Of a stretch of DNA of 64,000 nucleotides, positions 20,211 to 41,388 are shown piece after piece. Source of the stretch: a virus; the IMG/VR virus record IMGVR_UViG_3300006921_000010, positions 7,768 to 71,767 of that record; one strand, 5' to 3'. Positions within the stretch are counted from its first letter, which is position 1, and each line of letters begins with the position of its first letter. Below the pieces are notes generated by a model. That model searched no databases, was not told the DNA's origin, and saw only the letters and a list, made by a program, of their open reading frames with translations. A program made the translations under genes and the position numbers.

Positions 20211-20362
20211 TCCTTATTAACTCGCATTCTACCTTTACCACTTCTTCTAACACAAGTGGCACATATTTTTTTTCCTTTAGACTTTGCAGTAGGAGACATT
20301 CGGTTATAACACCCAGGATTTTCACACATCTTTCTATGCTTTATCATTGTAAACCACTTCAT
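20207..20362 (-). CDS. Small Zn-finger protein not in ORF track (MKWFTMIK...CENPGC...CATC)
   Basis: Translated by hand, 51 aa; GGAGG SD; overlaps both neighbours. Confidence 0.55.
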   Translation of the reverse strand: MKWFTMIKHRKMCENPGCYNRMSPTAKSKGKKICATCVRRSGKGRMRVNKE

Positions 20363-21282
20363 TATCCTCTCCTCCTACTAAAACCAATTTCTTCAAGCAC
20401 TTTATCGTTTAAATCTTCACCATTAATATATCTTTGAATATCCTCATAACCTGCGTTGTCTATGTATCTACTAATCATAACTGTCATTTCTCCTATGGTA
20501 GTGTTTTCTCTTTCAGGTAGTGTGCCTAAGTAAAACCTCTTTTGTTGAACATCCAGCATCCGTTTATAAATAAAGTCTACAGTTTCAGACCAAGCACGTT
20601 CCATTAACTGCGTAATTTGTCCCATGTATTCTACTACATTAGGGAATCTTATGTCTATAATTAACTTTTCCATGTGAGAAAACTCTTCACTTTCTCCTAT
20701 TGCCTCTTGTAGTCTATTAATTACACTAGATTTTGTTCTCCGAAGAGTATTATTAAAATCGTCTCGCCAATAATCTTTGTATTTATCTATTATTATTCTG
20801 CTTATTCCTTCAACACTTTTACCTGCATACCCTGCATATAATTCATCAAGTATAATTGTTGCTGCATGTTTTTTACACGCCGCTAATAACTTGCTAGTTT
20901 TTTCATCTAAATCAAACAGATTCTTGTCATCAATCTCTAATAGTAATCCAAGCATTATATCTGACATAACTCCACCTATTTCAGATTTTAAACCAGTATA
21001 CCCAGAAAGTTTATGGAATAACACATGTGCATATTCATGACTCAATGTATTGCTCATTTCTCTTATTACTTGTTCTTCATTTTCTTGTTCGTAATTACCG
21101 TCTTTATCATACAACATATTTTTCCATGCATTAGCACTTAAATTAATACTTGCTATGTTTCCGCGTGAAAACCCTGCCGCTTCTTTAGGCACTCCTCGAT
21201 AACCTTGTAAACCTTGTGAATCAACATCGGCATATTTACCATGAGAATACTTAAAGTCTTTAATTATGTTAAACCACTTCAT
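20362..21282 (-). CDS. Putative zincin metallopeptidase
   Basis: TLSHEYAHVLF (HExxH) with downstream DELYA; starts MKWFNIIK. Confidence 0.55.
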   Translation of the reverse strand: MKWFNIIKDFKYSHGKYADVDSQGLQGYRGVPKEAAGFSRGNIASINLSANAWKNMLYDKDGNYEQENEEQVIREMSNTLSHEYAHVLFHKLSGYTGLKSEIGGVMSDIMLGLLLEIDDKNLFDLDEKTSKLLAACKKHAATIILDELYAGYAGKSVEGISRIIIDKYKDYWRDDFNNTLRRTKSSVINRLQEAIGESEEFSHMEKLIIDIRFPNVVEYMGQITQLMERAWSETVDFIYKRMLDVQQKRFYLGTLPERENTTIGEMTVMISRYIDNAGYEDIQRYINGEDLNDKVLEEIGFSRRRG

Positions 21283-23490: not shown

Positions 23491-25299
23491 TGTAAAACCC
23501 CCTTTACAGGATGGTACATACTACCTTGATTATAGAACATATTCGGCATTCTCATTTTCTCACCATTTTTTTGGGGCATATTTTTTAGACCTTTTTTATC
23601 CTATTTTTGGGGTGTTATTTTTCTGGCACTTGCGTTTATTTTTTTGCTCTTTTTTGTCCATTCCCAGAATAAGAATTAATTCATTACCTGTAGTGAGGGT
23701 TTATTTGAGCATTGGTGGTTAATGTGTATTCTTTTATTGATTCATTTGTATCCTTGATGCACCGCGAATTAATTATTAATAGCGATTCATACATTGATGC
23801 TCAACAGCCTTCTATTAGACCCACATGAGTAACACTATATTAATTTAGGGTTTCTAAAGACAAAATCTTATGTCAATTAAAATAAAAAAAAATCGAAAGA
23901 CAAAGCATATGGTGGGAGAAACGTAAAGCGTTAACCACTGATGATGGTCTTACTCTCCCTCGGAATAACGTATAGTTGCGTTAAGCAATAGTAGAGAGGA
24001 GGGGAGACCAGAAGAAGGAGGTTAAAGCAGTGTGAATGAATCACACCTTAAGGGTCGGGTTTAATCACATAAAATATCAGTAGTTGGGTGTGATATCTAC
24101 CAAGCATTCTCCGTGCGTAGTTTCAATAGACGTTTCACTGATGCTTAATGCATCACCTTTCACCACTGCACACGAATGCTGGAGATACACTCCCATCTAT
24201 CTGCATCTTTTATGCAACCATATGGGTGTAGCGTAGCGTTAAGCAGCCTTAAGGATATGAAACGCTTCGCTGTTACATCATCCTGCTATTTCTAGTTAAA
24301 AGCATTGAAACGCTTCACTTTTACTGAATGTTTCATCACAACACTTTTACCACTACGTTACTAAAAATATTGAAGGATGTAATTTAATACCATATGATTG
24401 TGCATTAAGCACACTGTTGTAAGGGAGGTCGGTAATGAAGCAACGTGAAACGGCCTGAGTGGACGTTGACCGAACAAAAGGTGAGTCCCAATCTATTAGA
24501 TTGAACTCGCTACGCTCAAACAAATACAATCATATGGTATCATAAACGTAGTTTAGATTATCCCCAATGCGGTCACAATTCTTAGCGACACACCAACCAC
24601 TCCCGTTGTTTATTGCTAAACGCATATCTACTAAGAATGCGAACCATATGGTAGTGTTAAGTTATATCTGAGTTTACTCTGTTTAGGCAATGGAGGAACG
24701 AGGTGAACTGGTAAGTATTATCACGCAAACATACATAAAACGAATAGTGCATTAAGCACAGTTGTATGTGGCGGCTTAAGTAATACTTACCGTGCAACCA
24801 TGTTCCGCAATTTGCCTAAACGGAGTAAAGTCAGGGGAACTATTATCAATACCACAAATGTGGTTATTATTGACTCTATATAGGAAGAAGACGATATCAT
24901 CATGCTTAATGCATGGTTCTAGTGAGTGCGAGGCGCACTCCAAGAACATCTGATATTCAACCGTCTTCTCCTATATCTCCCCGAATATAACCATATGGTA
25001 GTGTTAAAGTGTAGGTTACTTTACCTAAGTCTTCGGAAACTTTCAAGGCTAGGAGAATATTTAACAGCATACATACGCGCTGAACCTAAACTGGTTCAGG
25101 TAAGTAATGTATTGGCATTAAGCCAATGTTTATTTGGACTAGCCTTACAGTTGGAAGAGACATTAGAGTTACAGTATACTAAACAATAACATCTACCCCA
25201 TGTCGTCTCCTCCCCAGGTGTCTCCCCTTCTGGTTGTTAGCATAGTATCCATAGAACGGCTTAATGCCTTATAGTTCTATTACCTAGATACTATTACAA

Positions 25300-25360
25300 C
25301 CATATGGTGTTATACTTTGTGGTATAACACCTTAAATACTAATCAATATCTATTATAATG
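25300..25360 (+). promoter_or_regulatory. Cassette promoter A (archaeal TATA-type)
   Basis: CCATATGG-N6-ACTTTGT-N9-CCTTAAATACTAA-N-ATTATAATG; TATA-like TTAAATA at 25332-25338, ~26 nt before the inferred start; layout conserved in four copies. Confidence 0.7.
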
Positions 25361-25767
25361 TCGAGGAAACGTAACTCGACATGAGTGTGCCAGAATAAGT
25401 CCGTTATCTAGGGCTAATGGAATGCCATGTTCTGTGGTGGAACAACGAGGCCGATAATAATAAGTCGGTCAGTGAAAGGAAGGTAACTCTTCTATGGTAA
25501 GTTTTCTGGGGTGAATGCTACATGCGAATATAGATACCCATTCAGAATTGGTGGACGGTAGAAATATCAACCCACTCACTCCCCTGTTTTTCTAGTTTCA
25601 AGGATTGAGCCAAACGATAGTTTAATGGACTCATAAAATAAAAAACTAGACCACATAAACGAGTGGGAAATAGAAGTGGAAATCCCGTAAGTTATTCCAG
25701 TGCATCCAACCGAAAGGCTAGCCATTAGTGCGTTAGTAGGTTGCAGGTGTTATAAACAACGCTCGAC
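25359..25767 (+). ncRNA. Putative ~410 nt structured non-coding RNA
   Basis: Follows promoter A; no ORF of 60 aa or more; several nested complementary segments and a CCGAAAGG GNRA hairpin. Confidence 0.45.
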
Positions 25768-26604
25768 CTTGTGGGTTTATTAACAAAGTATACACCCATA
25801 TGGGTGTAGCCCTTAAGGAGACTTTTTCGTTATTATTTCATGGCTTCACGCTTTTTCACATTAATTGTAATCAAGTGCTAAATGCACTATACCATGTTAA
25901 AAAACCTTCACCATTTCAAAAATCACAAAAAACCATTTCATTGTTCCATATGGTAGGAGTCTAGTCTCAGGCATTATGCCTAGAACCGTGGTGGGAAGAC
26001 TTAGGCCGACCCCAAACGTATTGGGGACTATCTATACTACGTTATGACACCATATGGTAGTGTAAAGAAAGGAACAGGATAAATATATTTATGCGGGTAT
26101 GGTGTGTGCGATTACGGTGCTTTTCTAGTATTATGAATAATACAGTATAGGGCATTTAGCCCTTGTATTCATAATGCGTATAGGGAAAGCACGTATACGC
26201 TACACAAATGTCCCGCATAAATATTATTTATTCTAGTGATTCTTATCATCTACCCGTCTTGAGGGCGGGAGACTTCAGGTTATCTGGTGTTAGACTTGGC
26301 TTAACGCCACTTCTTAGTTTCTATGAACTAATAAGAATAGTTCTTCCTAACACCATATGGATGGGGGGCATTAGTCATACAAAGGACATTAAGTCTGCTA
26401 CGAAGTAGATTTGACAATGCTCTCTCTCCACATAAAGTTTAAGACCTGGGGCAAACTATGTATTTGTATCGTTAGATAAACTACTGCCGTTGGCCGTGTT
26501 TATCACGAACTGCAACCATATGGTGGGAGTGGTAATACTTTGTTAAAAGAACGTGAACCTGAAAAAAGGGACAAAAAGAAGGGTGAAGGTGGCCTATCAC
26601 CTAA

Positions 26605-27144
26605 TCACTCTTCTTCTTGTCCCCCATTATCTACTACATTAGGATAACCTTCTAGTGTGAAAGTCCCATCCCAGAAATAACGCTTTGATACGTCATTCTT
26701 AGCATACGCATTGTAGCATTGACTCAAAAATAAGGACATAACCTTAGTTTGATTGTCAGCGTATTCTGTGCGGCCATCATCCATATCTCTATAGAGGACA
26801 CCGCCGGATTTACCGTGTGTTTTAGCAAAACCGCGTTCTTGATTGTATGCTACGTCATATTGATACTGCCAATAATCTGCTTTGTATGTATCAAAATCCG
26901 ATTTAATAGCGGTTGTCATCAATGACCTTCTACCGCCGCCAATAGGGGAATTGCTCAAATCAGCAAATATCCCACTAATGCTAGACCAATGCTTCTTACG
27001 AAGGTCGCTTTGCATGTCACCTATCGCAAATAGTCCATCAGCAATGACTCGTCTACCCTCATGTTGAGGGTTCGCATCGAACCATTCTGCAATCAATTCT
27101 TTCTTCGCATTCCATGTGTTATCTTCCATACTGTAATCTACCAT
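26605..27144 (-). CDS. Cassette-encoded orphan protein, paralogue of 29338..29847
   Basis: 179 aa; own promoter, GGAGG SD; shares N-terminal ME..W and HGKS.G, YA, WDGT and terminal QEEE motifs with the paralogue. Confidence 0.8.
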   Translation of the reverse strand: MVDYSMEDNTWNAKKELIAEWFDANPQHEGRRVIADGLFAIGDMQSDLRKKHWSSISGIFADLSNSPIGGGRRSLMTTAIKSDFDTYKADYWQYQYDVAYNQERGFAKTHGKSGGVLYRDMDDGRTEYADNQTKVMSLFLSQCYNAYAKNDVSKRYFWDGTFTLEGYPNVVDNGGQEEE

Positions 27145-27191
27145 AATTTATTCCTCCAAGTTATATAAATAACTAGGTGTTAGGCCACCTT

Positions 27192-27252
27192 CATTACAGT
27201 CATTTTAACTTACTATTTAAGGTGTTCATCCACAAAGTATCACACCATATGG
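27192..27252 (-). promoter_or_regulatory. Cassette promoter B
   Basis: Minus strand CCATATGGTGTGATACTTTGTGGATGAACACCTTAAATAGTAA...TAATG, nearly identical to promoter A. Confidence 0.7.
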
Positions 27253-28472
27253 AACAACGAAGTGGTAATTGGTAATTGCTTGTAGCGAAGAGTAATTATA
27301 TATTAGTAAGGACATTAAGTCCTAGCAATACGTTGAATATATAATTGTGATTGAGCGAAAGAATTAGCCATTCGTGCCTTAAGGGTTACACCCATATGGT
27401 AGTGTAAAACGATAGACGTTATGGGTTGTAAGGAGACTTGTCATCGTCTAGTCGTAGAGTAACGATGAGAAGCATCCGTCAAGACATGTTGTCGGCTTAG
27501 TTGGTACAATATCCGATATCTTGGGATTGTAAACTGTCCTCAAGATGTGGCTTAATGCCACTTACATACGTTTATCAACCATATGGTTGGTCATAATTGA
27601 AATACAGTTTGATGTGAACATTTAGGTATCAATAAGGTAGCGCAGTAATAGTGCTACATTACTTATACCGTGAACATTGTAAACTGTGTAATGTATAGAC
27701 CATGCCCCATTTTTGAATGGGGTCAAGCCCTAAACCACGTTATTTACGCTTAATGCGTATTTTCTCTTGTCCATATGGTTGTTAATAGACTGGTCTATAA
27801 CTTACCCCATTGTGGAAACCGCTAACGTTGTCCTTGCCTAGCAAGTGTTCTTAATGACACATTACAACAACGCTACTTCCATATGGGTGTGCATTAAGCA
27901 CAGGGTAAAACATAAACCCCCAAATGAGGATTATACATGGCGTTCCGAGAGGAAACCTCCTCCACTAACAATGTATAACCATATGGTTGCATTAAGCAAG
28001 GAACGTAGTATAGAGGTCTAGGGCGGCTCTGACCGATTAATACTACGAGACATTTCCCGATTGCCAAAAATGGGATTGACTTCCGCTAACCGCTTAACTA
28101 AACTACGCAAATGTTTCCATTTTCGTAGATTATGTAAAATCAACCATATGGTAGTGTAAAGATGGAACTGAAGAAAAATATATTTTTCTGAGAGTGCAAA
28201 GAGTGGGGTTTTGCAGATTCAGATGATATTAATTTAGCATTTAGTGGCATTAAGCCACTGCGTAATATTATCGGTTAAAACTCTGTAAAGCCCCCTTTTG
28301 CACCTTGTAAAAATATATTTTGTCTTTGAGTGTATTCTTATCATCTACCCGTCCTAACATCCGCCCCTCTGGTGCTAGACTTGGCCTAATGCCAACTGAC
28401 TAGATTATAATCTACACAGTATCGTTTTATCTAACACCATATGGTTCTAAACTTTGTCTATAGAACCTGAAG

Positions 28473-28688
28473 TTAATCTTCAGATTCCCCCGTTATAGAC
28501 ATATATTCGTCTAAAGCCTGTCTTAATTCGGACATAACCATAGAAAGGTCATCACCAGATACCTTCAATTCCTCAATAGAGAGGACAATGTTCTGTCCTG
28601 ATTTCATATGCTTTAATTTGATAGCATATTTAGGGGCATTTACTTGTTGTATAATAGTAGTAGTTTCGTTATTCATTAAAATCACCAA
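28473..28688 (-). CDS. Cassette-encoded small protein
   Basis: 71 aa (likely start MNNETT after GGTGA SD); downstream of promoter C and a structured leader. Confidence 0.6.
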   Translation of the reverse strand: MVILMNNETTTIIQQVNAPKYAIKLKHMKSGQNIVLSIEELKVSGDDLSMVMSELRQALDEYMSITGESED

Positions 28689-28798
28689 AGGGTGAGACAG
28701 CCCTTAACCAAGTGGCTATACTTCCAATAAATACGTTTAGATTGTCTCATGGCATCATCACGTTGTTGGATAGCGGTCAAGCATTGGTGGGCTGTCTA

Positions 28799-28860
28799 CA
28801 TTATAATAGATATTAGTTAGTATTTAAGGTAGTCCTTAACAAAGTTGTCCTACCATATGG
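28799..28860 (-). promoter_or_regulatory. Cassette promoter C
   Basis: Minus strand CCATATGG-N7-ACTTTGT...CCTTAAATACTAACTAATATCTATTATAATG. Confidence 0.7.
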
Positions 28861-29231
28861 TTCATCGTAGATTGGACAGAACCAGATTTTAGGGCTTACA
28901 CTTGGTATTGTAATCATTGCATCTGCGCTTCGTTGGCTGAATACGCCTGATAAAGAAATATCAGAAGAGTATATGTATTCATCCTTTGAAGACTTGATGG
29001 AATGAAACAATCCCTTCGCTACAACCATATGGAGGGTCATGAAGTGATAAAAGGTAATGTATGAACATAACAGTATGAATAAGGTAGCGCAATAATAGTG
29101 CTACCTTAGTAATACCGTGAAATACATTATTTGTTCATGATAGATTTCTCCACACAAATGAGGTATCCCCACTTACGTTTTGCAGAGGAGATGGCTTAAT
29201 GCCATATATCTCTAATTTCTCAGCAAGCCTA

Positions 29232-29289
29232 CCATATGGTTCGACTTTGTCAAGAACCCCTTATATACTAACTATGTTAGATTATAATG
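29232..29289 (+). promoter_or_regulatory. Cassette promoter D
   Basis: CCATATGG-N4-ACTTTGT...CCTTATATACTAAC...ATTATAATG. Confidence 0.7.
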
Positions 29290-29337
29290 TCGCTGACCTA
29301 ACTAAAGGGAAGAAAGGATTATTGGAAGGTAATTAAA

Positions 29338-29847
29338 ATGGAAGAAAGTAATTGGAATAATGTAAAGAATAAAGTAGCCTCATGCTTAGATGGGGATATT
29401 GATAGTGAAATACCTATTGATGTGAAAACATTAGTAAGCATGCTAATGGAGACAGGAGATAATAATGTCGCAAACCGAACCGCACTAGCGGCATCAGTAA
29501 AAGCGATGTTGAAAGATTTCCCATCAGGTCAAGTAGTCTGGAGAAGAGGTAATCAAGGACTATTGTCTATTGAGGCAAGTATGGTTGTTGAAACTGCTTG
29601 TGCAGAAATTAGAGAAGCGGCTCATCTGTTTTTCACCACTACTCAGACTTATTCACAACCCCTGTTACGAAAGCATGGTAAATCTAAAGGCGCACCTGTG
29701 TTTTTAGATGCCGATGACTACGCAAATACTCTAGTGGCTAAAGCCAAGCAAACTGCTAGAGAATTATTCAAATCCAAAGAATGGGATGGTACTACTGACG
29801 GCTTAGATGCATGTGCATCTTATACCGAAGTTCAGGAGGAGGAATAA
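29338..29847 (+). CDS. Cassette-encoded orphan protein, paralogue of 26605..27144
   Basis: 169 aa; GGAAGGT SD; shared motifs as above. Confidence 0.8.
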   Translation: MEESNWNNVKNKVASCLDGDIDSEIPIDVKTLVSMLMETGDNNVANRTALAASVKAMLKDFPSGQVVWRRGNQGLLSIEASMVVETACAEIREAAHLFFTTTQTYSQPLLRKHGKSKGAPVFLDADDYANTLVAKAKQTARELFKSKEWDGTTDGLDACASYTEVQEEE

Positions 29848-30475
29848 TCGCCTTCTGAACTTTAGTTTTGGTCGGCGACAACGGTAGGCAAGGATAGGTT
29901 GAAATATACCTATTCTTGTCTCCAAAACTTCTGGTTCTATGGACAAAGTTTAGAACCATATGGTCACACTAAAGATGTGCCTCAATTTGTGGATACGCAG
30001 ATATTCTTATTCTTTGTCGTTCATAACATATCATCTCCTGAATATCTGCTACCATATGGTAGTCCATAATGAATGGAATGAAAAGGTTTAGGACTTACCC
30101 GAGGGGTTTTTTAGGGTATGCACAAGGACGATTCTCTTGTGCTTAATGCACACTCTCTGCCACCATATGGTTGTAGAGTAATAAAAAAAGAATAGCGTGT
30201 TGTAGAGCGAGGGCATCGAGGTGGTGCCGCGCAGTATATATACTAACTCGATTTGATTGTAATGTCGGCGGCAATTAAAATCTAATGGCCTGTTAAACAC
30301 GCATTCCGCCAATGGCCTATTTATACCTATTACATTTAATGGCTTAATTTATTATACAGTGAATAAGCATAGTTTAGGATTAATGAACCGAGAAGGCTAT
30401 CTATGTATAATATATCTCTTATCTTATACACATATCAATATGGCATATCCTATATGATATGATAGTTTATCGAAT

Positions 30476-30755
30476 ACGTTTCTAATTTCTAATTTGGATT
30501 GGAAATGAGTTTGCTCAAAATGAGTGGGTTAGGGTATAGTAAGTATGTTAAAATTATATATTTATAATATTATAATATTTCTAACTAATATATATAACAA
30601 CTACCTACCTACCTACCTACCTACCTACCCTGATGGGGGGTTAGAAACGTTAGAAATTAGAAATGACAGTCAAAACAAGTTAAATTGTATCAGTTATCAT
30701 AGAGTATCTGGTGCAAAATGTGTTTCCAATGGGATTAGAATAAGGTTAGAAATGC
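30476..30755. other. Candidate replication origin: AT-rich core, inverted TTAGAAA repeats, (CTAC)7 tract and G-string
   Basis: TTTCTAA at 30479, 30486 and 30578; TTAGAAA at 30641, 30650, 30657 and 30746; nearly pure AT at 30548-30600; CTAC x7 at 30601-30628; G6 at 30635-30640. Confidence 0.45.
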
Positions 30756-30834
30756 TTCTTGCCCTACTGCTGTATTATTCTGTCCAAGAAGACATTGCGC
30801 GCTTGCTTTTAACACAAAAAGGAGAATAAAAGAA

Positions 30835-31392
30835 ATGGTATTAACCAAGAAAGAAGAAAAGAAAATAATTAAACGATATAAAGAAGGTATGAAAACAAAG
30901 GACATAGCATTAGAGTTAAATGTTAATCAAAGTAAAGTAACTTCTAAGATTTACCACCTACAAGGGTTAGGTATTTTACCTAAGAGATATGGTAAAGATA
31001 AAGTGTCTAGGAAACATATTATGATGAATAATTTAAACTATACACCAAAGACAGTAACAACACAAAAGAAGTTGAAACAAGGTGCTTTACCAAACACACA
31101 AACAAAGGCTATAAAAGACAGGCAAGTGCTTGGTGAGAACCAGGTCAAAATAGCAGGACTTATGGATGAAATTAAGACAATGCTTTTGGCTAAAAATGTT
31201 CAGTATGGCGACTCCGCTTTACAGCCAGTTAGAGTCTTTTCTACGGCTGACACAACTGAACAAATCAAGGTAAGAATTGATGATAAAATTAATAGAATTG
31301 TGCAAGGTAATGATAGTATGGAATCAGATGAAGATGTGATTAAAGACTTGATAGGTTATCTTGTATTATTACTCATAAATATGAGAGAGTAA
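30835..31392 (+). CDS. HTH fused to a DUF1599/Nmad1-like nucleotide-modification-associated domain
   Basis: N-terminal EGMKTKDIALELNV HTH; C-terminal KNVQYGDS...RIDDKINRI...DLIGYLVLL. Confidence 0.7.
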   Translation: MVLTKKEEKKIIKRYKEGMKTKDIALELNVNQSKVTSKIYHLQGLGILPKRYGKDKVSRKHIMMNNLNYTPKTVTTQKKLKQGALPNTQTKAIKDRQVLGENQVKIAGLMDEIKTMLLAKNVQYGDSALQPVRVFSTADTTEQIKVRIDDKINRIVQGNDSMESDEDVIKDLIGYLVLLLINMRE

Positions 31393-31402
31393 AACTCACA
31401 CG

Positions 31403-31552
31403 TTGAGTTAGGTTTGTCCGTTAAAAAGATGAATAATGTTGGTATATCAAATGGTTATTTGAAGTCTCATAGGTTGTATCAAAATGCAACTAGGACTAGG
31501 CGACACTGACAACTTCACACTGCAATGTGAAGGTCTTATCTTCCTAACTCAA
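31403..31552 (+). ncRNA. Putative ~150 nt structured RNA or leader
   Basis: TTGAGTTAGG (31403-31412) pairs with CCTAACTCAA (31543-31552), enclosing three hairpins; intergenic. Confidence 0.4.
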
Positions 31553-31573
31553 TAATATAACAGAGGAATTAAA

Positions 31574-31762
31574 ATGGATATAATAGATGAAATAAATAAT
31601 GGAACACAAATACTAATCTTGCGAGACCCTGTACCCAAAGGTAAATTGGGAATATCGTTTATCTTCGATGACGACAAAAGGTTTAACGGAACATTAGATA
31701 TGTTAAAACACAAGCAATTGATACTCGATATTGCTGAAGCATTTGGAGATGAAGAGGAATGA
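31574..31762 (+). CDS. Hypothetical protein
   Basis: 62 aa, GAGG SD. Confidence 0.5.
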   Translation: MDIIDEINNGTQILILRDPVPKGKLGISFIFDDDKRFNGTLDMLKHKQLILDIAEAFGDEEE

Positions 31763-32013
31763 AATTAGAAAACATGACAAGAAAACAATTGCTTGAACAT
31801 ATTGAAGAATTAAGTAAAGAATGTAATGCATTATGGAGTATTACAGATTGTTGGACTATGTGTAGGGATGACTATACCATGCACGACCAATACGAAAACC
31901 TCGATGATAAATACGCCTATGATGACTTCAATGGCGTTATCATCCTCAAAGAGTTGTATGATTACACAGAAGAAGATGGCTACCAATTAAAAGAAATAGA
32001 GGTGGAAGAATGA
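31759..32013 (+). CDS. Hypothetical protein
   Basis: 84 aa, ATGA overlap. Confidence 0.5.
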   Translation: MKLENMTRKQLLEHIEELSKECNALWSITDCWTMCRDDYTMHDQYENLDDKYAYDDFNGVIILKELYDYTEEDGYQLKEIEVEE

Positions 32014-32127
32014 AATGTGGAGAATGCGTAAAAGGTATAATAATGAAACAGATAGCGATATCTGAATGGAGTGCGGAACCATGCACTTGCACAATAAATA
32101 ATTGGTTCAATGAATTAAAACAAAGGA

Positions 32128-32526
32128 ATGATTAAAATGACGAAAAGTTGGAAGAAAGAAAACACACAAAGAATGAGAGTAACTTATACTTATGACAAGT
32201 ATAAGGAAGCGGAAGAGTATAAAGATACTTTCCGTGTAATAGAAGGAACATTAGCATATGTAAATATGCCAATGGCTAACTCCTTCTTGAATATAGTAGA
32301 CGAAAATACAGGCAAAGTAGTAAGTATTGCATTCGGATTAATATTGAAAATTGAATGGGATACCATGCCAAAGTGGACTCAACTATCAGAATCACAAGTA
32401 GTAGATTCTGCTACAATGAGATTGAAGAACCTAGATAATGAACTAGAGATTCAAAGAAATAACATGGCTCAACAGGAAGCATTGTCAGAAATGCTTGACA
32501 AAAGCGGCGTATCGGAGAGTAATTAA
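32128..32526 (+). CDS. Hypothetical protein
   Basis: 132 aa in early operon. Confidence 0.5.
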   Translation: MIKMTKSWKKENTQRMRVTYTYDKYKEAEEYKDTFRVIEGTLAYVNMPMANSFLNIVDENTGKVVSIAFGLILKIEWDTMPKWTQLSESQVVDSATMRLKNLDNELEIQRNNMAQQEALSEMLDKSGVSESN

Positions 32527-32773
32527 TATGGCTATGACACAAGAAAGAAAAGTAGTAGAGTTTACCTATATCGAGAATGAGGAGATGCCTCCCATCATTA
32601 TAACGATGGATGAGGATGATAAACCAAAGGTAGTAATTAACAGATGTCATACAATTTGGCTGTCTTTGAATAGAAAACTTATAGGTGGCATCTCAGAGGA
32701 GTTATTCGGTAAGATAGATGACTTGCTTTCAGGTCATTTGAAAGAACAAAGAATGTATGAAACAATGGAGTAG
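32495..32773 (+). CDS. Hypothetical protein (likely start MAMTQERK)
   Basis: ORF in operon. Confidence 0.5.
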   Translation: MTKAAYRRVINMAMTQERKVVEFTYIENEEMPPIIITMDEDDKPKVVINRCHTIWLSLNRKLIGGISEELFGKIDDLLSGHLKEQRMYETME

Positions 32774-32799
32774 AATATGTCAGGTATAATAAAAATAAA

Positions 32800-33096
32800 G
32801 TGTCCAGAATGCGACAAATGGATGAGACAGGCCGTGGATTTATGTCCAGATTGTCGAGTCTTTTTAATATCAGTAAAGGAGGAAGAGGAATGAATAATAA
32901 GTTTAAAACAGCAAGAGGCCATACGGTAATACATCACGGTGCAATCTGTGCGTATACAGAAGTAGTAGAAAGAACACCACGTAAAGTAATGGGTAGTTAT
33001 GAAACTACTTATATTGACGTTCACTTACATAGTGGAACGGTGTTTACAATTCAACCAGAAGATGTCGAAAGATTTCTTGAATGGATGAAAGAATAA
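32800..33096 (+). CDS. Hypothetical protein (likely start MNNKFK)
   Basis: GGAGG SD before the internal ATG. Confidence 0.45.
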   Translation: MSRMRQMDETGRGFMSRLSSLFNISKGGRGMNNKFKTARGHTVIHHGAICAYTEVVERTPRKVMGSYETTYIDVHLHSGTVFTIQPEDVERFLEWMKE

Positions 33097-33257
33097 GGAG
33101 GAAATAAAAATGCAAATAAATCAATGCGAATGCGGAAAAATAATAAGTATGAATAAAACAAAATGCAAGTCTTGTAATGTTAAGGTGATGGCGTGATATG
33201 CCCTTGCTGTAATAGAATATTACCAGACTACAAGTATTACGATATAGAATTGAAGAA

Positions 33258-34415
33258 GTGTCGAGTAACGGTGATGAAATGAGAAGAGAATTAGGAACAG
33301 GAAGATGGGACAAGAAACTAATCCAGAATATGGTTGAGTTATCTGTATCAGACAACTACGAAGAGGCTAAACATGAATGGATAGCAACCGGAGAAGTTTG
33401 GTGGAATCAATTAAGTGCAGTACCAGATTGGGCGGCTAAACATCAGAACAATTGTCTATGCGGTCATGATATAGTATATCATTTTGAGATTCTTAATACT
33501 GAGAATGGAACAAGAGAGTGTGTTGGTTCAGACCACATCAATTCATATCTAATCTTTAGAGCAATCAAGGAAGATAATCCTTCATTGTCTGACGACATGA
33601 TAACTGATGACATGATTGAAGAGTGGATTAATGTTAGAGTCGAAGCACTAAAACAGAAAGTTTGGTGGAGAGAAAACGGTGAACAATTCACACTAATGTT
33701 TGATAGAGTTAAAGACCTAGACTTACGAGTTAATGTAAGAAAGAAAGGTAGACACTATGACTCTGACTTACAATTATATAGAGATACTACCTTCATTAGA
33801 AAGGTATCTAAATATGATTTTGGGGACTTAGATTATCAAATGGCTAGTATAGTTTGGAGGTGGAATCACCCAGATAACCCTAAAGCACAGATAAATAGAA
33901 AGGGTTTTCCTAACCAAAAACTATGGAATGACCTATTAATGTTCTACTTTAATGTAGAGAAAGCAGAAGCAATTGTCAAAAAAGAAGACGATTTTGTTGA
34001 ACGTAGAACATTTACTCTAAAGAAACACAAGGAAAATCAGATTAACATCAGAAATGAACAAAGAAAAAGGCGAATTAAAGTAGCAAATAAAGTGCATGAG
34101 ATTACATTTGAACCATTTTTTGTAGAATGTTGTGATTTCTATGGAGTAAAACCATTCATTAAAGAGCAAGGAAGAAACACTTGGGAAGAAAACTTCTTAA
34201 ATAATGCTAAGAAGTTAATAGTATCAGGACATACCCTGACGGAAGGACAAGTCTCTACACTATGGAATATATTAGATGGTGATAGTAGACAACAACAAGC
34301 AACTCAAAAGCAGAAGGAGTATTTAGTTAGGCTAGGTTATGAAGGCGATGTAGACGAACTAACGAAACATGAAGCAAGCGAGCAAATTAAAAGACTAAAA
34401 GGAAATTGGAGTTGA
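33258..34415 (+). CDS. Hypothetical protein with Zn-binding N-terminal domain
   Basis: CLCGH.I...I.N..NG....VGSDHI motif; C-terminal ATQKQKEYL...LTKHEASEQI. Confidence 0.6.
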   Translation: MSSNGDEMRRELGTGRWDKKLIQNMVELSVSDNYEEAKHEWIATGEVWWNQLSAVPDWAAKHQNNCLCGHDIVYHFEILNTENGTRECVGSDHINSYLIFRAIKEDNPSLSDDMITDDMIEEWINVRVEALKQKVWWRENGEQFTLMFDRVKDLDLRVNVRKKGRHYDSDLQLYRDTTFIRKVSKYDFGDLDYQMASIVWRWNHPDNPKAQINRKGFPNQKLWNDLLMFYFNVEKAEAIVKKEDDFVERRTFTLKKHKENQINIRNEQRKRRIKVANKVHEITFEPFFVECCDFYGVKPFIKEQGRNTWEENFLNNAKKLIVSGHTLTEGQVSTLWNILDGDSRQQQATQKQKEYLVRLGYEGDVDELTKHEASEQIKRLKGNWS

Positions 34416-34419
34416 AAAA

Positions 34420-34665
34420 ATGGAAAAGAAAGATAAAGGTAAAAGTAAGAAAGAGTTAGAATTAGAATTGGATATGTTAATTGAATCGAATGTTGAACAA
34501 CAGAATCAACTTCAACAATTGAGTCAAGCATACCAGACTATTCTAAATGCGAACACAAACTTAAGTGTTCTAGTAGATAAATATGAAGAAACAATCAACT
34601 TGCTAACTGCAAGATTGATAGAAACAAAACGCGATGTAAGAGTAGCATCTGAGGAGTCGAGGTAA
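34420..34665 (+). CDS. Coiled-coil hypothetical protein
   Basis: 81 aa heptad-rich. Confidence 0.5.
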   Translation: MEKKDKGKSKKELELELDMLIESNVEQQNQLQQLSQAYQTILNANTNLSVLVDKYEETINLLTARLIETKRDVRVASEESR

Positions 34666-34705
34666 GGTTAATAGACCTACCTTAATAAGAGAAAAATAAG
34701 AGGAA

Positions 34706-34918
34706 ATGAAAATGTTATTAACAATAATTAATGAAACAGGACATACAGAATTAGTGAGCCAAACGGCATCACAAGTAATAGACCAGATAAACGACCACCC
34801 ATCTCATTGGGTGATTATTGATGGTGATTTGACATCAAGAGAAATGATTTCAGAAGTAAGTTGGGATACTGTAACATCAGTAGACCTTATTCCGGCAATA
34901 GTCGGCGGAACACAGTAA
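34706..34918 (+). CDS. Ubiquitin-like beta-grasp protein (ThiS/MoaD/SAMP-like)
   Basis: 70 aa ending VDLIPAIVGG-TQ, the ThiS/MoaD-type C-terminal di-glycine followed by two extra residues. Confidence 0.7.
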   Translation: MKMLLTIINETGHTELVSQTASQVIDQINDHPSHWVIIDGDLTSREMISEVSWDTVTSVDLIPAIVGGTQ

Positions 34919-34927
34919 GCGTTCCAT

Positions 34928-34976
34928 CTTGAGGGTTGGGTAGTAGATGCCTTCACTACCCACCCTCCTACCAAGA
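34928..34976 (+). other. Strong hairpin immediately after the Ubl gene
   Basis: AGGGT-TGGGTAGT...ACTACCCA-CCCT stem, closed by TCTTG/CAAGA. Confidence 0.5.
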
Positions 34977-35369
34977 GGCATTATCATGCTTAAAGACAAT
35001 ATTAATTTTATAGATAAAGACGTATTCCCTACGCTGATGGAAATATTCGGTTGGAATGCAAAAGAAGATTTCTTGACTTACAAGGACATGGCTGTTGTTA
35101 GAGCAGACTTTTATCCTACGGGTCATGTATTCGCTTTCAGTCATAAGGCTGTTATCGTTTGTGATGGTAAGATGAGTATCACCTACAAAGGTGAAACTTA
35201 TACAGACTTTTCAGAATTAGAGAAAAGATATGGAACCAAAGCAATATCCACATTTCCAAAGTGGGAGATTAAAATGGAAAAACAATGGACTGTTAAAAAG
35301 AACGGTCAATGGGTGGCGGCATTCACCAATCTAGCAGAAATGCCATATAGACAAGCATTGAGGTGCTAA
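34947..35369 (+). CDS. Hypothetical protein (likely start MLKDNINF)
   Basis: ORF in operon. Confidence 0.5.
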   Translation: MPSLPTLLPRGIIMLKDNINFIDKDVFPTLMEIFGWNAKEDFLTYKDMAVVRADFYPTGHVFAFSHKAVIVCDGKMSITYKGETYTDFSELEKRYGTKAISTFPKWEIKMEKQWTVKKNGQWVAAFTNLAEMPYRQALRC

Positions 35370-35370
35370 T

Positions 35371-37302: not shown

Positions 37303-37639
37303 TCATCATTACAAATACAAAGGTTTCACATCTACTGATGTTAAAATGATATACCCTTTTCTACTAGAGAAGGTAATGACTGTTGAGCATATTCTACCCT
37401 CATCAAGAGACCGTGTGGGTAAATATGCTTACAGGAATAAAGACCAGATGGTTGATTCTTTTATACAAGCATCAACTGATGTGATAGATGGTAATTGTGG
37501 TGCTGAATATTATCTTAACTTTGTTAGAAGAATATTTATAGCATCATCATTATCACCAAGTAATAGCAAGTTTTACTTGGAGATAGCAGAATTGAAACAA
37601 CTTGCAGAATATATAGAGGCGAATAAAAATGAAGTTTAG
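37277..37639 (+). CDS. Hypothetical protein
   Basis: 120 aa in operon. Confidence 0.45.
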   Translation: MRVVCVRYNHHYKYKGFTSTDVKMIYPFLLEKVMTVEHILPSSRDRVGKYAYRNKDQMVDSFIQASTDVIDGNCGAEYYLNFVRRIFIASSLSPSNSKFYLEIAELKQLAEYIEANKNEV

Positions 37640-38108
37640 TGATTGTAAATGTGGATGTAATAAGTTCAATTTAGATATGAAAGGAAAAATGATATGTCAA
37701 GCGTGTGGTGCTGAGTTTAAACCATTTGAAGCAGAAATGCATAAGGTGATTAAAGACGATGGCTTCCATTATTTTTGGGCTGTGTTTACACCCCATTTTA
37801 TGGAACGATTAACTGAGAGAATCCCAGGTGCTGAAGTAGAAGATGTGTTAGAGATTGCATCGGCAATAGAGAAGAAAGCAAAGAGAAAGAAGTTTCAATG
37901 CACCAGATGGAAAGACAGACATATCATATGGAAATATAGATATAACGAGAAGCGTAAAAGACTTGAGTTAGAGTTTATCAGCGTAATACCTGTAAATAAG
38001 TTTACCACTAGATTAGACAATGGATACTTTGTTAAAGATATACAATATGTCGAAATAGAAACTAAGGAGGAATCTAAATGCAAAACAATAAAAATGAACA
38101 AGAAATAA
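37629..38108 (+). CDS. Zn-ribbon plus DUF4258/RelE-like domain protein
   Basis: CKCGC...CQACG, then FTPHFMERLTER...EFISVI. Confidence 0.45.
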   Translation: MKFSDCKCGCNKFNLDMKGKMICQACGAEFKPFEAEMHKVIKDDGFHYFWAVFTPHFMERLTERIPGAEVEDVLEIASAIEKKAKRKKFQCTRWKDRHIIWKYRYNEKRKRLELEFISVIPVNKFTTRLDNGYFVKDIQYVEIETKEESKCKTIKMNKK

Positions 38109-38500
38109 AACAACAAGAAGAATTACAAGCGAAGTATGATTCATTTATGAAATCAGACTTACTTAAAGGACTTAAGAAATATCTAAAAGATAACAACAGA
38201 ATCAGAAATAAATCTGATGGTTTTGGTAGAAGGAAAGGTAATGGATTAGAAAGACCATGTATTAATGGTAAATATTATTCATGGAACTCCTTTACTAAAC
38301 TCCCTAAAGATGCAGTATTAGTTTATTGTCTGATGACAGGTTGTGATTTAGATTACTTACTAGCCCTACAAAAGAGAGGTTGGTTTGATGTGAATAAGAA
38401 ACTTAGAGCGCAAGCCCGTAAAGATGGTAAAGAGATTATAGGCGTATCTGGAGGATTTCTAATCAAACCTAAAGGTTGGAAAGGTGAAACTAATGTTTAG
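38078..38500 (+). CDS. Basic hypothetical protein
   Basis: 140 aa, GGAGG SD. Confidence 0.5.
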   Translation: MQNNKNEQEIKQQEELQAKYDSFMKSDLLKGLKKYLKDNNRIRNKSDGFGRRKGNGLERPCINGKYYSWNSFTKLPKDAVLVYCLMTGCDLDYLLALQKRGWFDVNKKLRAQARKDGKEIIGVSGGFLIKPKGWKGETNV

Positions 38501-40756: not shown

Positions 40757-40758
40757 TA

Positions 40759-41379: not shown

Positions 41380-41388
41380 GTTGATAAT

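What the first reader, a model, noticed from the sequence alone, without database searches (positions are those of the whole stretch)
23905..30170. Cassette array of about 26 CCATATGG-delimited structured units at the genome's divergence point
Seen: 23 exact and 3 one-mismatch copies of the palindrome CCATATGG (mostly ACCATATGGT) within 6.3 kb, against one copy noticed elsewhere in the window (63968). Units are 100-730 bp. Many fold into long imperfect rods or branched hairpins; for example TTTACTCTGTTTAGGCAA pairs with TTGCCTAAACGGAGTAAA and GGTAAGTATTA with TAATACTTACC in 24650-24853. Half-palindromes (TGG...CCA) can close each unit's stem. This is not CRISPR: the repeat is too short and the spacers are long, structured and partly paralogous. 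Inference: an undescribed viral system. It could be (a) a recombination or shuffling cassette array resembling an integron or shufflon, with CCATATGG as the crossover core; (b) a polycistronic structured-ncRNA array cut at CCAUAUGG; or (c) a ssDNA/cruciform platform used in genome entry, replication or packaging. No recombinase gene is recognisable in this window.
Basis: partly seen in the sequence, partly recalled or inferred. Interest (0 to 1): 0.93.

Follow-up and report, generated by a model that had tools for sequence, protein, structure and literature searches.

The report
Palindrome-joined shuffling cassette array, archaeal virus
Between its two gene arms this ocean virus (probably of archaea) carries about 25 small DNA modules joined end to end by one eight-letter palindrome, and related viruses hold the same modules in a different order and orientation, broken at that palindrome, with no known recombination enzyme in sight.

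Summary
There are 23 exact CCATATGG copies at 24218-30170, against 0.9 expected per window, plus three one-mismatch copies. They split a 6.3 kb, mostly non-coding, strand-switch region into 25 units of 96-729 bp.

The recombination reading is supported by comparison. A relative 92-95% identical in its collinear flanks (L065/L071) holds the same units, full length from site centre to site centre, in another order and orientation. Two further relatives (L084, L086) and at least four other lineages show the same. Of 47 array pairs sharing three or more unit families, 22 are rearranged. One 614 bp cassette is inverted in place.

Four units are self-contained expression cassettes: three ORFs and one manA-like RNA. 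The rest are gene-less folded units.

No tyrosine, serine, Y1, DDE_3 or rve enzyme was found.

The junction occurs in 100 listed stretches of viral contigs but only twice, at about chance level by my own estimate, in 596 Gb of prokaryote genomes.

The closest known things are the PeSL cassettes of T4-type phages. I found no published description. This scan had already noted the same system in at least 9 other genomes. The mechanism remains inferred.

The parts
23905..30170 (.). The whole array: 26 junction sites and 25 units (U01-U25, cut between CCAT and ATGG)
   Evidence: Exact sites start at 24218, 24644, 24991, 25300, 25796, 25946, 26050, 26353, 26516, 27245, 27392, 27579, 27771, 27879, 27979, 28144, 28437, 28853, 29025, 29232, 29956, 30052, 30163. 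One-mismatch sites start at 23905, 24390, 24530. Unit table. GC 0.38-0.40 against about 0.33 in the flanks, and the skew changes sign here.
23905..23912 (.). Left boundary site GCATATGG: fixed flank half plus unit half
   Evidence: The same GCATATGG is the leftmost site of the relative L065/L071. The left flank 23553-23913 is 95% identical and collinear.
30163..30170 (.). Right boundary site; from here the right flank is collinear with relatives
   Evidence: L071 7736-18959 matches window 30163-41504 at 92-93% without rearrangement.
25304..25799 (+). Cassette U07: end hairpin (25304-25331), TATA-like box 25332-25338, TATAAT 25354-25359, non-coding RNA gene, end with CTTTG motif (25771-25799)
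   Evidence: Sequence; end hairpins. RNA-library contig at 25444-25769. Orthologues full length in L071 (93%) and L084.
25359..25582 (+). manA-like structured RNA (Rfam RF01745), cargo of U07
   Evidence: 54.3 bits against a gathering score of 55.2. E 5e-12 over the 7.3 kb searched. Model positions 1-192 of 192. Begins at the start point predicted from the promoter.
26520..27248 (-). Cassette U12: ORF 26605-27144 (179 aa, P0121), promoter-side hairpin 27221-27248, TTAAATA at 27214-27220
   Evidence: No Pfam or PHROG match. RNA-library contig 26604-27128. Present in L071, L084 and L086.
28441..28856 (-). Cassette U20: ORF 28473-28688 (71 aa, P0123), end hairpins 28441-28467 and 28828-28856, TTAAATA at 28821-28827
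   Evidence: Inverted in L084 relative to the P0001 anchor.
29236..29959 (+). Cassette U23: end hairpin 29236-29258, TTATATA 29261-29267, TATAAT 29283-29288, ORF 29338-29847 (169 aa, P0122), T-rich run about 29862-29872, end hairpin 29933-29959
   Evidence: RNA-library contig 29307-29879, so the end hairpins lie outside it. Inverted in L086.
24648..25303 (+). U05 and U06, gene-less long rod units of the 'ATGGTAGTGT...' family
   Evidence: z -14.3 and -4.1. Family alignment A3. U06 is inverted and moved in L071.
26054..26356 (+). U10, gene-less two-hairpin unit
   Evidence: z -9.3; A3. The L071 orthologue is 71% identical and sits elsewhere in the array.
27396..27582 (+). U14, shorter gene-less unit with the same ATGGTAGTGT start
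   Evidence: z -3.8.
28148..28440 (+). U19, gene-less two-hairpin unit
   Evidence: z -6.8; A3. Inverted in L084.
24139..30157 (.). 17 small hairpins with loop ATTAA or TTAAT (consensus GC-ATTAA-GC) inside the units
   Evidence: Loop starts at 24145, 24404, 24751, 24906, 25117, 25261, 25861, 26388, 27314, 27552, 27750, 27893, 27991, 28249, 28473, 29196, 30143. That is 17 in the array against 6 in the other 57.7 kb, 4 of the 6 with A/T-only stems. Stems covary. Orientation is mirrored about the nearer site in 32 of 38 cases over all arrays.
30235..30268 (+). Same promoter type just right of the array, facing the right arm
   Evidence: Sequence: TATATATACTAAC ... TGTAATGTCGG, like the promoters of U07, U20 and U23.
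30835..31392 (+). P0001, a helix-turn-helix protein whose gene follows the array in every relative examined; candidate reader of the sites (inference only)
   Evidence: N-terminal HTH resembling the GcrA DNA-binding domain. Helical model, pLDDT 62.6. In 10 viral and 40 metagenome loci found with it, all CCATATGG copies lie upstream and none downstream.

Best explanation
This is a hyperplastic accessory-module array of a magrovirus-like tailed virus. Its modules are joined head to tail by an invariant short palindrome, (A)CCATATGG(T). Each module carries half of the palindrome at each end (ATGG...CCAT). In gene cassettes each end is also a small hairpin whose stem starts at the GG and whose loop holds CTTTG, so a junction reads hairpin-ATAT-hairpin. 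DNA breakage and rejoining inside the palindrome moves, flips, adds and removes whole modules. Because the core is symmetric the reaction is blind to orientation, and because gene cassettes bring their own promoter and T-rich terminator they work in either orientation and any position. Shown: the anatomy, conservation of the junction in 97 non-redundant arrays, rearrangement at the sites between relatives, and base-pair conservation in the units. Inferred: that a sequence-specific enzyme, not yet recognisable and either viral or host, makes the cut and join, rather than general recombination. Also inferred: that the benefit is rapid exchange of accessory genes and RNAs among co-infecting relatives.
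For: Rearrangement at the sites:
- Against L065/L071, 16 window units match from first to last base but in the order -U06, -U22, U05, U01 (part), U21, U02, U07, -U08, U12-U14, U19, U20, -U15, U10, U23.
- 11 kb of right flank and 1.2 kb of left flank are collinear at 92-95%.
- L084 has -U19, -U20 and U13 before U12. L086 has -U23.
- Other lineages are rearranged too: L009/L027, L013/L068, L074-76/L075-77, L088.
- Over 97 non-redundant arrays, 22 of 47 comparable pairs are rearranged. 198 of 308 homologous unit pairs fit within 3 nt at all four ends.
- A 614 bp cassette is inverted in place: 594 of 614 identical as reverse complement, 305 of 614 as forward, with the flanks unchanged.
- A contig of run X8, with 1 differing letter over the 395 bases laid on U20-U21, continues after the site at 29025 into a U13-like unit instead of U22. 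Run X6 holds both the window's first junction and another continuation after 23912 (single contigs).

The site is specific:
- All 36 copies in four 94-98 kb relatives lie in their single array.
- 596 of 733 sites are ACCATATGGT. CTTTG lies within 30 nt inward of 827 of 1258 unit ends, against 19 for CAAAG.
- Perfect stems of 5 bp or more from the GG occur at 79 of 456 ends, against 0.25 in shuffles, with 27 different stems.

Homology is short: pairs of window junctions share a median of 11 identical bases (90th percentile 14, maximum 23).

Orientation is random: 25 cassettes on the same strand as the anchor gene and 27 on the opposite strand.

Pairing is conserved: in 21 orthologue pairs, double changes keep the pair in 47 of 69 cases, against 13 of 37 with slid partners.
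Against: - No recombinase or transposase was found. Phage_integrase and Resolvase gave nothing at E<=1 in the 71.8 kb record or in G001-G005. DDE_3 and rve gave nothing in G000-G004. Y1_Tnp was searched in G000 only. G001 and G002 are rated 100% complete.
- The Pfam scan of 85 ORFs showed none among the 25 families listed; 19 weaker families were not shown.
- Magroviruses encode a RadA-like ATPase, nucleases and ligases (Philosof 2017, passages), so general recombination is available.
- Some units match only in part (U01, U03, U10, U11, U16, U18, U25). Breakpoints inside units therefore exist too.
- Array pairs are not independent events.
- Many arrays were fetched with a pattern that contains the junction, so at least one junction per such locus is there by construction.
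- All of this is evolutionary comparison plus assembled contigs. No reaction has been observed.
Confidence: 0.55

Rival explanations
1. PeSL-like regulatory junctions with passive shuffling. The palindrome and its hairpins are first of all transcription signals: an operator for the adjacent HTH protein P0001, or insulators between autonomous cassettes. Rearrangements are a by-product of the virus's general recombination, or of template switching at these repeated, hairpin-prone sequences.
For: - In four window cassettes the end hairpin abuts a TATA-like box.
- The P0001 gene follows the array in all 50 loci found with it, and no site lies downstream of it.
- T4-type PeSLs, which combine a promoter and a stem-loop terminator, mediate just such modular shuffling without a dedicated enzyme (abstract and section 14 of PMC2839356).
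- A TATA-box-plus-inverted-repeat motif is reported before ORFs of the haloarchaeal virus HGTV-1 (passage in PMC3950731).
- Magroviruses encode a RadA-like ATPase and nucleases.
- No recombinase was found.
Against: - Identity shared between junctions is only about 8-14 bp.
- Sites also join the many units that have no promoter of the type seen in the four cassettes.
- Both ends of a cassette carry the hairpin, including the end without a promoter.
Confidence: 0.28
2. The units are selfish TIR elements: MITE-like, and cargo-carrying for the ORF cassettes. Each inserts into the TA or ATAT at the centre of an existing junction and duplicates it. The transposase is encoded elsewhere, for instance by the host.
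For: - Every unit has inverted ends (ATGGT...ACCAT).
- ORF cassettes have 23-29 bp hairpin ends in inverted orientation.
- Gene-less units fold as rods.
- Insertion with a TA, ATAT or 8 bp duplication would regenerate a full site on both sides. This last point is inference.
Against: - No DDE_3, rve or Y1 transposase was found in the viruses.
- The full junction is essentially absent from 596 Gb of prokaryote genomes: 2 hits, in a Halanaerobiales and a Stigonema assembly, against about 4 by my own estimate of chance.
- No copies lie outside the single array.
- Window small units have no blastn match to 365 larger cassettes, so a derivation by internal deletion is not visible.
Confidence: 0.1
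3. The array is a structured single-strand or cruciform platform at the replication origin, used for priming, initiation or packaging, and module turnover is secondary. Alternatively, it is one long transcript processed at CCAUAUGG into structured RNAs.
For: - It sits at the GC-skew turning point and the strand switch.
- Units are strongly structured on both strands, with conserved pairing and no clear strand bias: 75 and 58 one-sided kept pairs on + and -.
- Loops are conserved: ATTAA, and CTTTG.
Against: - 6.3 kb with 26 sites is far larger than usual origins (general knowledge).
- In relatives the array consists mostly of ORF cassettes of 400-1300 bp.
- The ATTAA hairpin is confined to this lineage: 17 and 14 copies here and in L071, 0-2 in 20 other arrays.
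- Units lie in both orientations, which a single processed transcript does not explain.
Confidence: 0.07

Closest known systems
PeSL (promoter-early stem-loop) mobile regulatory cassettes of T4-type phages (Arbiol et al. 2010, PMC2839356: abstract and section 14 read; Comeau et al. 2014, PMC4122927: search listing only)
   Same: A hyperplastic region of small, mostly orphan genes in a tailed virus. Repeated composite motifs with a promoter and a stem-loop lie between modules. Close relatives differ by insertion, deletion and replacement of modules at these motifs. No dedicated recombinase is known.
   Different: - PeSLs are promoter-length sigma-70 motifs; here the shared core is an invariant 8-10 bp palindrome, and junction pairs share a median of 11 bp.
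- Both ends of a module carry a mirrored hairpin.
- Modules are flipped as well as moved.
- About four fifths of this window's units have no gene.
- All sites sit in one array.
- The host is probably archaeal, with TATA-type promoters.
PeSL-like TATA-box-plus-inverted-repeat motif of haloarchaeal virus HGTV-1 (Sencilo et al. 2013, as cited in a passage of PMC3950731; the original was not seen)
   Same: An archaeal tailed virus in which a conserved motif with a TATA-like box and an inverted repeat precedes many ORFs. The authors suggested it serves transcription control and genome shuffling.
   Different: I have only the one-passage description. No invariant palindrome, end-to-end array, inversion of modules or gene-less units are mentioned there.
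Integrons (IntI, attI, attC gene cassettes); features recalled from general knowledge
   Same: An array of mobile cassettes, each bounded by a recombination site with a structure-conserved, sequence-variable hairpin part. There is a large pool of mostly orphan cassettes: 196 small-unit and 256 large-unit families among 633 units. Some cassettes carry no gene.
   Different: - No integrase.
- The core is a perfect palindrome, not GTTRRRY.
- Cassettes carry their own promoters and lie in both orientations at 25:27.
- The carrier is a virus.
Shufflons and other multiple-inversion systems (R64 Rci/sfx); recalled
   Same: Several segments are inverted singly or in groups by crossover at short repeated sites, giving many arrangements.
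   Different: Shufflons need an adjacent tyrosine recombinase and asymmetric 19 bp sites. They only invert, and they switch the end of one gene. Here no recombinase was found, units are also gained, lost and moved, and units are autonomous.
MITEs, REPINs and TA-targeting TIR elements (IS630/Tc1); recalled
   Same: Short gene-less units with inverted ends that fold as rods. The junction can be read as CCA-TA-TGG.
   Different: There are no dispersed copies, no transposase, and no copies in cellular genomes.

Membership tests
Integron | Adjacent IntI-type tyrosine recombinase gene | tested here: not met
   PF00589 gave no match at E<=1 in the six frames of G000 or of five related records, two of them rated 100% complete.
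Integron | Cassettes promoterless, co-oriented, expressed from a common promoter | tested here: not met
   Four window cassettes carry their own TATA-like promoter, two on each strand. In 17 anchored arrays ORF cassettes lie 25 on the same strand and 27 on the opposite strand.
Integron | Cassettes gained, lost and reordered at the boundary sites | tested here: met
Shufflon / multiple inversion system | Dedicated site-specific recombinase next to the invertible segments | tested here: not met
   No PF00589 or PF00239 match.
Shufflon / multiple inversion system | Inversion of segments between short repeated sites | tested here: met
   In-place inversion of a 614 bp cassette. U06, U08, U15 and U22 are inverted in L071; U19 and U20 in L084; U23 in L086.
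PeSL-type mobile regulatory cassettes | Repeated composite motif of promoter plus stem-loop between small genes of a hyperplastic region | tested here: met
   For the four promoter cassettes, the end hairpin is followed directly by TTAAATA or TTATATA and then TATAATGT. It is not met for the gene-less units, which lack that promoter.
PeSL-type mobile regulatory cassettes | Stem-loop acts as terminator and promoter is active | not testable with these tools
   Only contigs of one RNA library could be laid. They cover U07, U12 and U23.
PeSL-type mobile regulatory cassettes | Differences between close relatives map to the motifs | tested here: met
PeSL-type mobile regulatory cassettes | Mini-circles made by exchange between neighbouring motifs | not tested
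   No raw reads were available. The one joint (27252 to 29668, shorter side 20 letters) is too weak to count.
TIR transposon / MITE | Transposase in the element, the virus or the host, and dispersed copies with target duplications | tested here: not met
   No PF13358, PF00665 or PF01797 match. All 36 sites of four relatives lie in their single array. The junction pattern gave 2 hits in 596 Gb of prokaryote genomes.
manA RNA (Rfam RF01745), for the cargo of U07 only | Score at or above the curated gathering score over the full model | tested here: inconclusive
   54.3 bits against 55.2. Full model 1-192, E 5e-12 and 4e-13. It was not listed in the gathering-threshold scan of the window.
Magrovirus (Philosof et al. 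2017) | Tailed-virus structural module plus an archaeal-type replication module (family B polymerase, split in group B; clamp loader; one or two ATP-dependent ligases) | tested here: met
   Portal, SU10-type capsid protein, prohead protease, two ORFs with DNA_pol_B, two with DNA_ligase_A_M, Rep_fac_C. The best GenBank polymerase matches are haloarchaeal viruses at 25% identity. Features taken from passages of PMC5434244. No tree was built.

The most novel reading that the evidence does not exclude
The junction is the substrate of a new kind of site-specific recombination. An enzyme of no recognised recombinase family reads two small hairpins with conserved loops on folded single strands, as integron integrases read attC. 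It cuts and rejoins in the 4-nt ATAT linker between them. This gives an orientation-blind, integron-like cassette exchange system that abundant ocean viruses of archaea use to trade accessory genes and structured RNAs.
Probability: 0.3. Interest if true: 0.9.

Novelty: new variant of a known kind. Interest (0 to 1): 0.7.

Why it matters
Magroviruses are described as among the most abundant viruses of the surface ocean (Philosof 2017, abstract), and how they trade accessory genes is not known. This array shows a simple, readable rule: one invariant palindrome joins all modules. That makes module exchange directly countable in metagenomes. It also gives a defined DNA substrate with which to fish for the responsible enzyme. 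If that enzyme is new, it would be a compact recombination tool that ignores orientation. The array also delivers a stand-alone, promoter-driven manA-like RNA. That family has so far been treated as a bacterial and cyanophage 5' UTR element, and was recently reported to self-assemble into cages (bioRxiv 10.64898/2026.07.01.735769, passages). It further holds dozens of gene-less folded units whose function is open.

Tried and rejected
- **CRISPR, tRNA, known RNA families.** No tRNA was found. No Rfam family reached its gathering score in the window. With the E-value threshold only manA stood out; the four other matches had E 0.5-3.2.
- **Similar DNA in GenBank phages.** None.
- **Left-flank protein 20362-21282 as an anchor.** It gave no relatives in viral contigs.
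- **ORF-less units in RNA.** In the one RNA library laid (X21, contigs only) no contig lay on the gene-less units. The single joint 27252 to 29668 (shorter side 20 letters) was set aside.
- **Cassette proteins.** P0121, P0122 and P0123 have no Pfam or PHROG family. The Atlas look-alikes of P0121 are viral hypothetical proteins, some with portal-family labels on a minority of members, which I do not trust. P0121 and P0122 are weak paralogues: 21% identity, E 1e-4.
- **P0001 as the enzyme.** The model is all-helical and of low confidence (pLDDT 62.6), so I ran no fold search. It looks like a DNA binder, not a catalyst.
- **Methylation-reader idea** (GcrA-like domain plus CATATG methylation). No N6_N4_Mtase or Dam family match in five records.
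- **Restriction-and-religation at CATATG.** CATATG is not avoided outside the array: 21 observed against 29.5 expected. This gives no sign of a nuclease that cuts that hexamer.
- **Decay of ORF cassettes into small units.** Blastn of 17 window units under 400 bp against 365 larger cassettes gave no hits.
- **Two apparent precise single-unit insertions** (L109 217 bp, L077 199 bp). These proved to be artefacts of my counting one-mismatch sites inside a cassette and are dropped. The 98 bp extra unit of L074, which lies between exact sites, stands.
- **Generalising the promoter.** A loose TATA pattern did not track the upstream end of ORFs in other lineages. The promoter claim is therefore made for this window only.
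- **RNAalifold on the 10-member paralogue family.** It kept only the closing stem and the two small hairpins, because MAFFT could not align the variable long stems.
- **Rows left out of counts.** In one search, U12, U23 and U26 were omitted. In one search, arrays with 90% or more shared 25-mers were merged (111 to 97), only exact sites were used, and units over 3000 bp were skipped.
- **Literature.** Searches for magrovirus plus repeats, CCATATGG, and magrovirus / Marine Group II / intergenic / palindromic / hypervariable found nothing on this array. Word searches inside PMC11706807 and PMC5434244 also found nothing. Supplements were closed, so the supplementary figures and tables of Philosof 2017 may bear on this and were not seen.

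Full report
**What is there.** The window is part of a 71,767-base IMG/VR virus record rated 75% complete.

- Genes left of about 23.5 kb run on the minus strand: portal, SU10-type capsid protein, prohead protease.
- Genes right of about 30.5 kb run on the plus strand: ribonucleotide reductase, ATP-dependent ligase, clamp-loader-like ATPases, and a family B polymerase in two ORFs.
- GC skew changes sign between the two arms, and GC rises from about 0.33 to 0.38-0.40.
- The polymerase's best GenBank matches are haloarchaeal tailed viruses at 25% identity.
- This gene set fits the published description of magroviruses, including the split polymerase of group B and two ligases (passages of PMC5434244). 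I built no tree.

**The observation.** It holds.

- CCATATGG occurs 23 times at 24218-30170 and once more at 63968. Shuffles give 0.9 per window.
- Three one-mismatch copies (23905, 24390, 24530) lie in the span.
- 13 of the 23 are ACCATATGGT.
- Cutting at the site centres gives 25 units of 96-729 bp.
- Only three sizeable ORFs lie inside, of 179, 169 and 71 aa.
- Of the 24 units folded (the two ORF cassettes over 520 nt were skipped), the mean z was -3.5 and -3.0 on the two strands, and U05 reached -14. Coding controls of 190 nt gave -1.2 (my own shuffler, 30 shuffles, so the figures are rough).

**Anatomy of the units.** There are two kinds of unit.

*Expression cassettes.* Four units (U07, U12, U20, U23) have this layout:
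- At the upstream end, ATGG opens a small hairpin whose loop holds CTTTG.
- Directly after it come TTAAATA or TTATATA, about 15 bases, TATAATGT, and then the gene.
- After the gene of U23 comes a T-rich run, then a mirrored hairpin, then CCAT.

A junction therefore reads hairpin, ATAT, hairpin, and the CC and GG of the palindrome are the last and first stem bases.

U07 has no ORF. From the predicted start at 25359 it matches the full Rfam manA model at 54.3 bits, just under the gathering score of 55.2, with E 5e-12.

Contigs of one marine RNA library, about 95% identical to the window, lie on U07 (25444-25769), U12 (26604-27128) and U23 (29307-29879), while most of the laid stretch has no such contig. 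These are contigs, so they show presence in an RNA library and nothing about levels. The U23 contig starts after the promoter and ends after the T-run, leaving the end hairpins outside it.

*Gene-less units.* The other units have no gene.
- Five (U05, U06, U10, U14, U19) begin ATGGTAGTGT. Four of them form a family with a conserved scaffold and variable long stems.
- 17 small hairpins with loop ATTAA or TTAAT (GC-ATTAA-GC) lie in the array, against 6 in the other 57.7 kb, 4 of the 6 with A/T-only stems.
- Their orientation is mirrored about the nearer site in 32 of 38 cases.
- They are a feature of this lineage only: 17 here, 14 in L071, and 0-2 in 20 other arrays.

**Relatives.**
- A 15-mer from the window found 64 viral-contig stretches, several with many sites.
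- The protein encoded just right of the array (P0001, 30835-31392) found 10 viral and 40 metagenome loci. Wherever enough upstream DNA is held there are CCATATGG copies upstream, and there are none downstream.
- In four related records of 94-98 kb, all 36 copies lie in one array each.
- The full junction pattern (CAAAGT, gap, ACCATATGGT, gap, ACTTTG) is in 100 listed stretches of viral contigs.
- The same pattern occurs only twice in 596 Gb of prokaryote genomes, which is about what I estimate for chance. I saw no sign of a cellular copy.
- After merging near-identical ones there are 97 arrays with 633 units. The median is 7 sites and the maximum 23. The median unit is 497 bp.
- 827 of 1258 unit ends have CTTTG within 30 nt inward, against 19 with CAAAG.
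- Caveat: many of these loci were fetched with a pattern that contains one such junction.

**The test of shuffling.** L065/L071 is 92-95% identical to the window in both flanks and collinear over 11 kb to the right and 1.2 kb to the left. Inside the array its units match the window's from first to last base but stand in another order and orientation:

-U06, ?, -U22, ?, ?, U05, U01 (part), U21, U02, U07, -U08, U12, U13, U14, U19, U20, ?, ?, a unit shared with L084, -U15, U10, U23, U16 (part)

- L084 has -U19, U07, U13, ., U12, -U08 ... -U20 ... U23.
- L086 has U15 ... -U23 ... U12. All three are anchored on the same right flank.
- Other lineages show the same: L009 against L027, L013/L021 against L068, L074/L076 against L075/L077, and L088 against L072/L090/L107.
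- Of 47 array pairs that share at least three single-copy unit families, 22 are rearranged and 25 collinear. These pairs are not independent events.
- 198 of 308 homologous unit pairs fit within 3 nt at all four ends.
- The cleanest case is a 614 bp cassette that is 594/614 identical as reverse complement and 305/614 as forward, between flanks that keep their orientation, with both switches inside the palindrome.
- One contig of run X8, with 1 differing letter over the 395 bases laid on U20-U21, continues after the site at 29025 into a U13-like unit rather than U22. Run X6 holds both the window's first junction and another continuation after 23912.
- ORF cassettes face either way with equal frequency, 25 to 27.

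**What this says about mechanism.**
- The junctions of this window share a median of only 11 identical bases (90th percentile 14, maximum 23). That is short for strand-exchange recombination, which is my judgement from general knowledge.
- The 8-mer is invariant across viruses whose P0001 is only 52-83% identical, while the stems beside it covary: 27 different perfect stems among 79 ends. Something therefore reads the sequence of the core and of the loops, and the pairing matters.
- Orthologous units keep pairs through double changes in 47 of 69 cases, against 13 of 37 with slid partners, on either strand alike. This fits DNA hairpins or cruciforms as well as RNA.
- The enzyme is not visible. 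Phage_integrase and Resolvase gave nothing in this record or in five related records. DDE_3 and rve gave nothing in this record or four related ones. Y1_Tnp gave nothing in this record. Two of the related records are rated complete.
- Among the 25 Pfam families listed for 85 ORFs there is an ERCC4/HhH nuclease, a PD-(D/E)XK nuclease, two ligases and an RNA ligase, but no recombinase (19 weaker families were not shown).
- P0001 has an N-terminal helix-turn-helix resembling the GcrA DNA-binding domain and a helical C-terminal part of unknown kind. It is a candidate reader of the sites by position only.

I therefore put 0.55 on sequence-specific cutting and rejoining at the palindrome. I put 0.28 on a PeSL-like regulatory junction that shuffles passively, 0.10 on selfish TIR elements, and 0.07 on an origin platform or processed transcript.

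**Comparison with what is known.**
- The nearest described thing is the PeSL of T4-type phages: a promoter plus a stem-loop terminator repeated between small genes of hyperplastic regions. Recombination at PeSLs accounts for much of the difference between two close phages and yields mini-circles (abstract and section 14 of PMC2839356).
- A PeSL-like motif with a TATA-like box and an inverted repeat is reported for the haloarchaeal virus HGTV-1 (passage in PMC3950731).
- This array differs in several ways: an invariant 8-10 bp palindromic core, mirrored hairpins at both ends of a module, inversion of modules, many gene-less structured units, and confinement to one array.
- It works like an integron or a shufflon in outcome but fails their defining features (see Membership tests).
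- I found no paper describing it. Supplements were closed.
- This scan had already reported the same system on at least 9 other genomes, with the same closest-known family. I read those notes after my own analysis, and they agree with it.

**Verdict.** The shuffling reading is supported by comparison. The mechanism and the role of the gene-less units are open. I class it as a new variant of a known kind, with interest 0.7.

Noticed in passing
window 25359-25770 (+): A stand-alone, promoter-driven manA-like RNA (RF01745, 54.3 bits against a gathering score of 55.2) with about 190 further non-coding bases, in a probable archaeal virus. The family is described from marine metagenomes, cyanophages and gamma-proteobacteria as a 5' UTR element (PMC2864571 passage). 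It was recently reported to form 60-mer cages (bioRxiv 10.64898/2026.07.01.735769 passages). The RNA-library contig on it has word depth 611, but it diverges from the window after 25769.
   Followed up: partly
whole record G000 (window 1-64000 plus 7.8 kb upstream): Several short palindromes are completely absent. CCATGG, CCTAGG, CCAAGG and CCTTGG (CCWWGG) total 0 against 34.6 expected. AAATTT is 0 against 15.7, GAATTC 0 against 12.8, ATCGAT 0 against 4.5, and GATATC 7 against 27.4. This looks like avoidance of host restriction sites. The array's own CCATATGG is CC-WWWW-GG, one step from the avoided CCWWGG.
   Followed up: partly
window 63968-63975: The only CCATATGG outside the array lies 25 bases from the end of the record, inside a small inverted repeat (AACAGTT...AACTGTT). 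One copy is what chance gives, so it is probably nothing. However, in G002 the record also ends 80 bases after a site.
   Followed up: no
window 30600-30626: A (CTAC/TACC)n microsatellite of about six copies between the right-flank promoter and P0001, inside the 94-aa ORF 30545-30829. Read laying reported skipped repeats at 30588-30636, where reads seemed cut.
   Followed up: no
window 23553-23905: Conserved non-coding stretch left of the array (95% identical to L071, 74% to L086), with T-runs followed by GGGG. Two low-depth RNA-library contigs lie at 23563-23802. It could hold the left-arm promoter or origin elements.
   Followed up: no
window 26801 and 29249: Contigs of three different runs (X3, X6, X8) share the same alternative continuation inside ORF179 (before 26801) and 10 bases into U23 (behind 29249). 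A variant ORF179 end and a variant cassette behind a similar end hairpin are therefore common in other samples.
   Followed up: no
window 26605-27144 (-) and 29338-29847 (+): The two larger cassette proteins are weak paralogues (21% identity, E 1e-4), and both end in an acidic tail ...QEEE. No family is known for either.
   Followed up: partly
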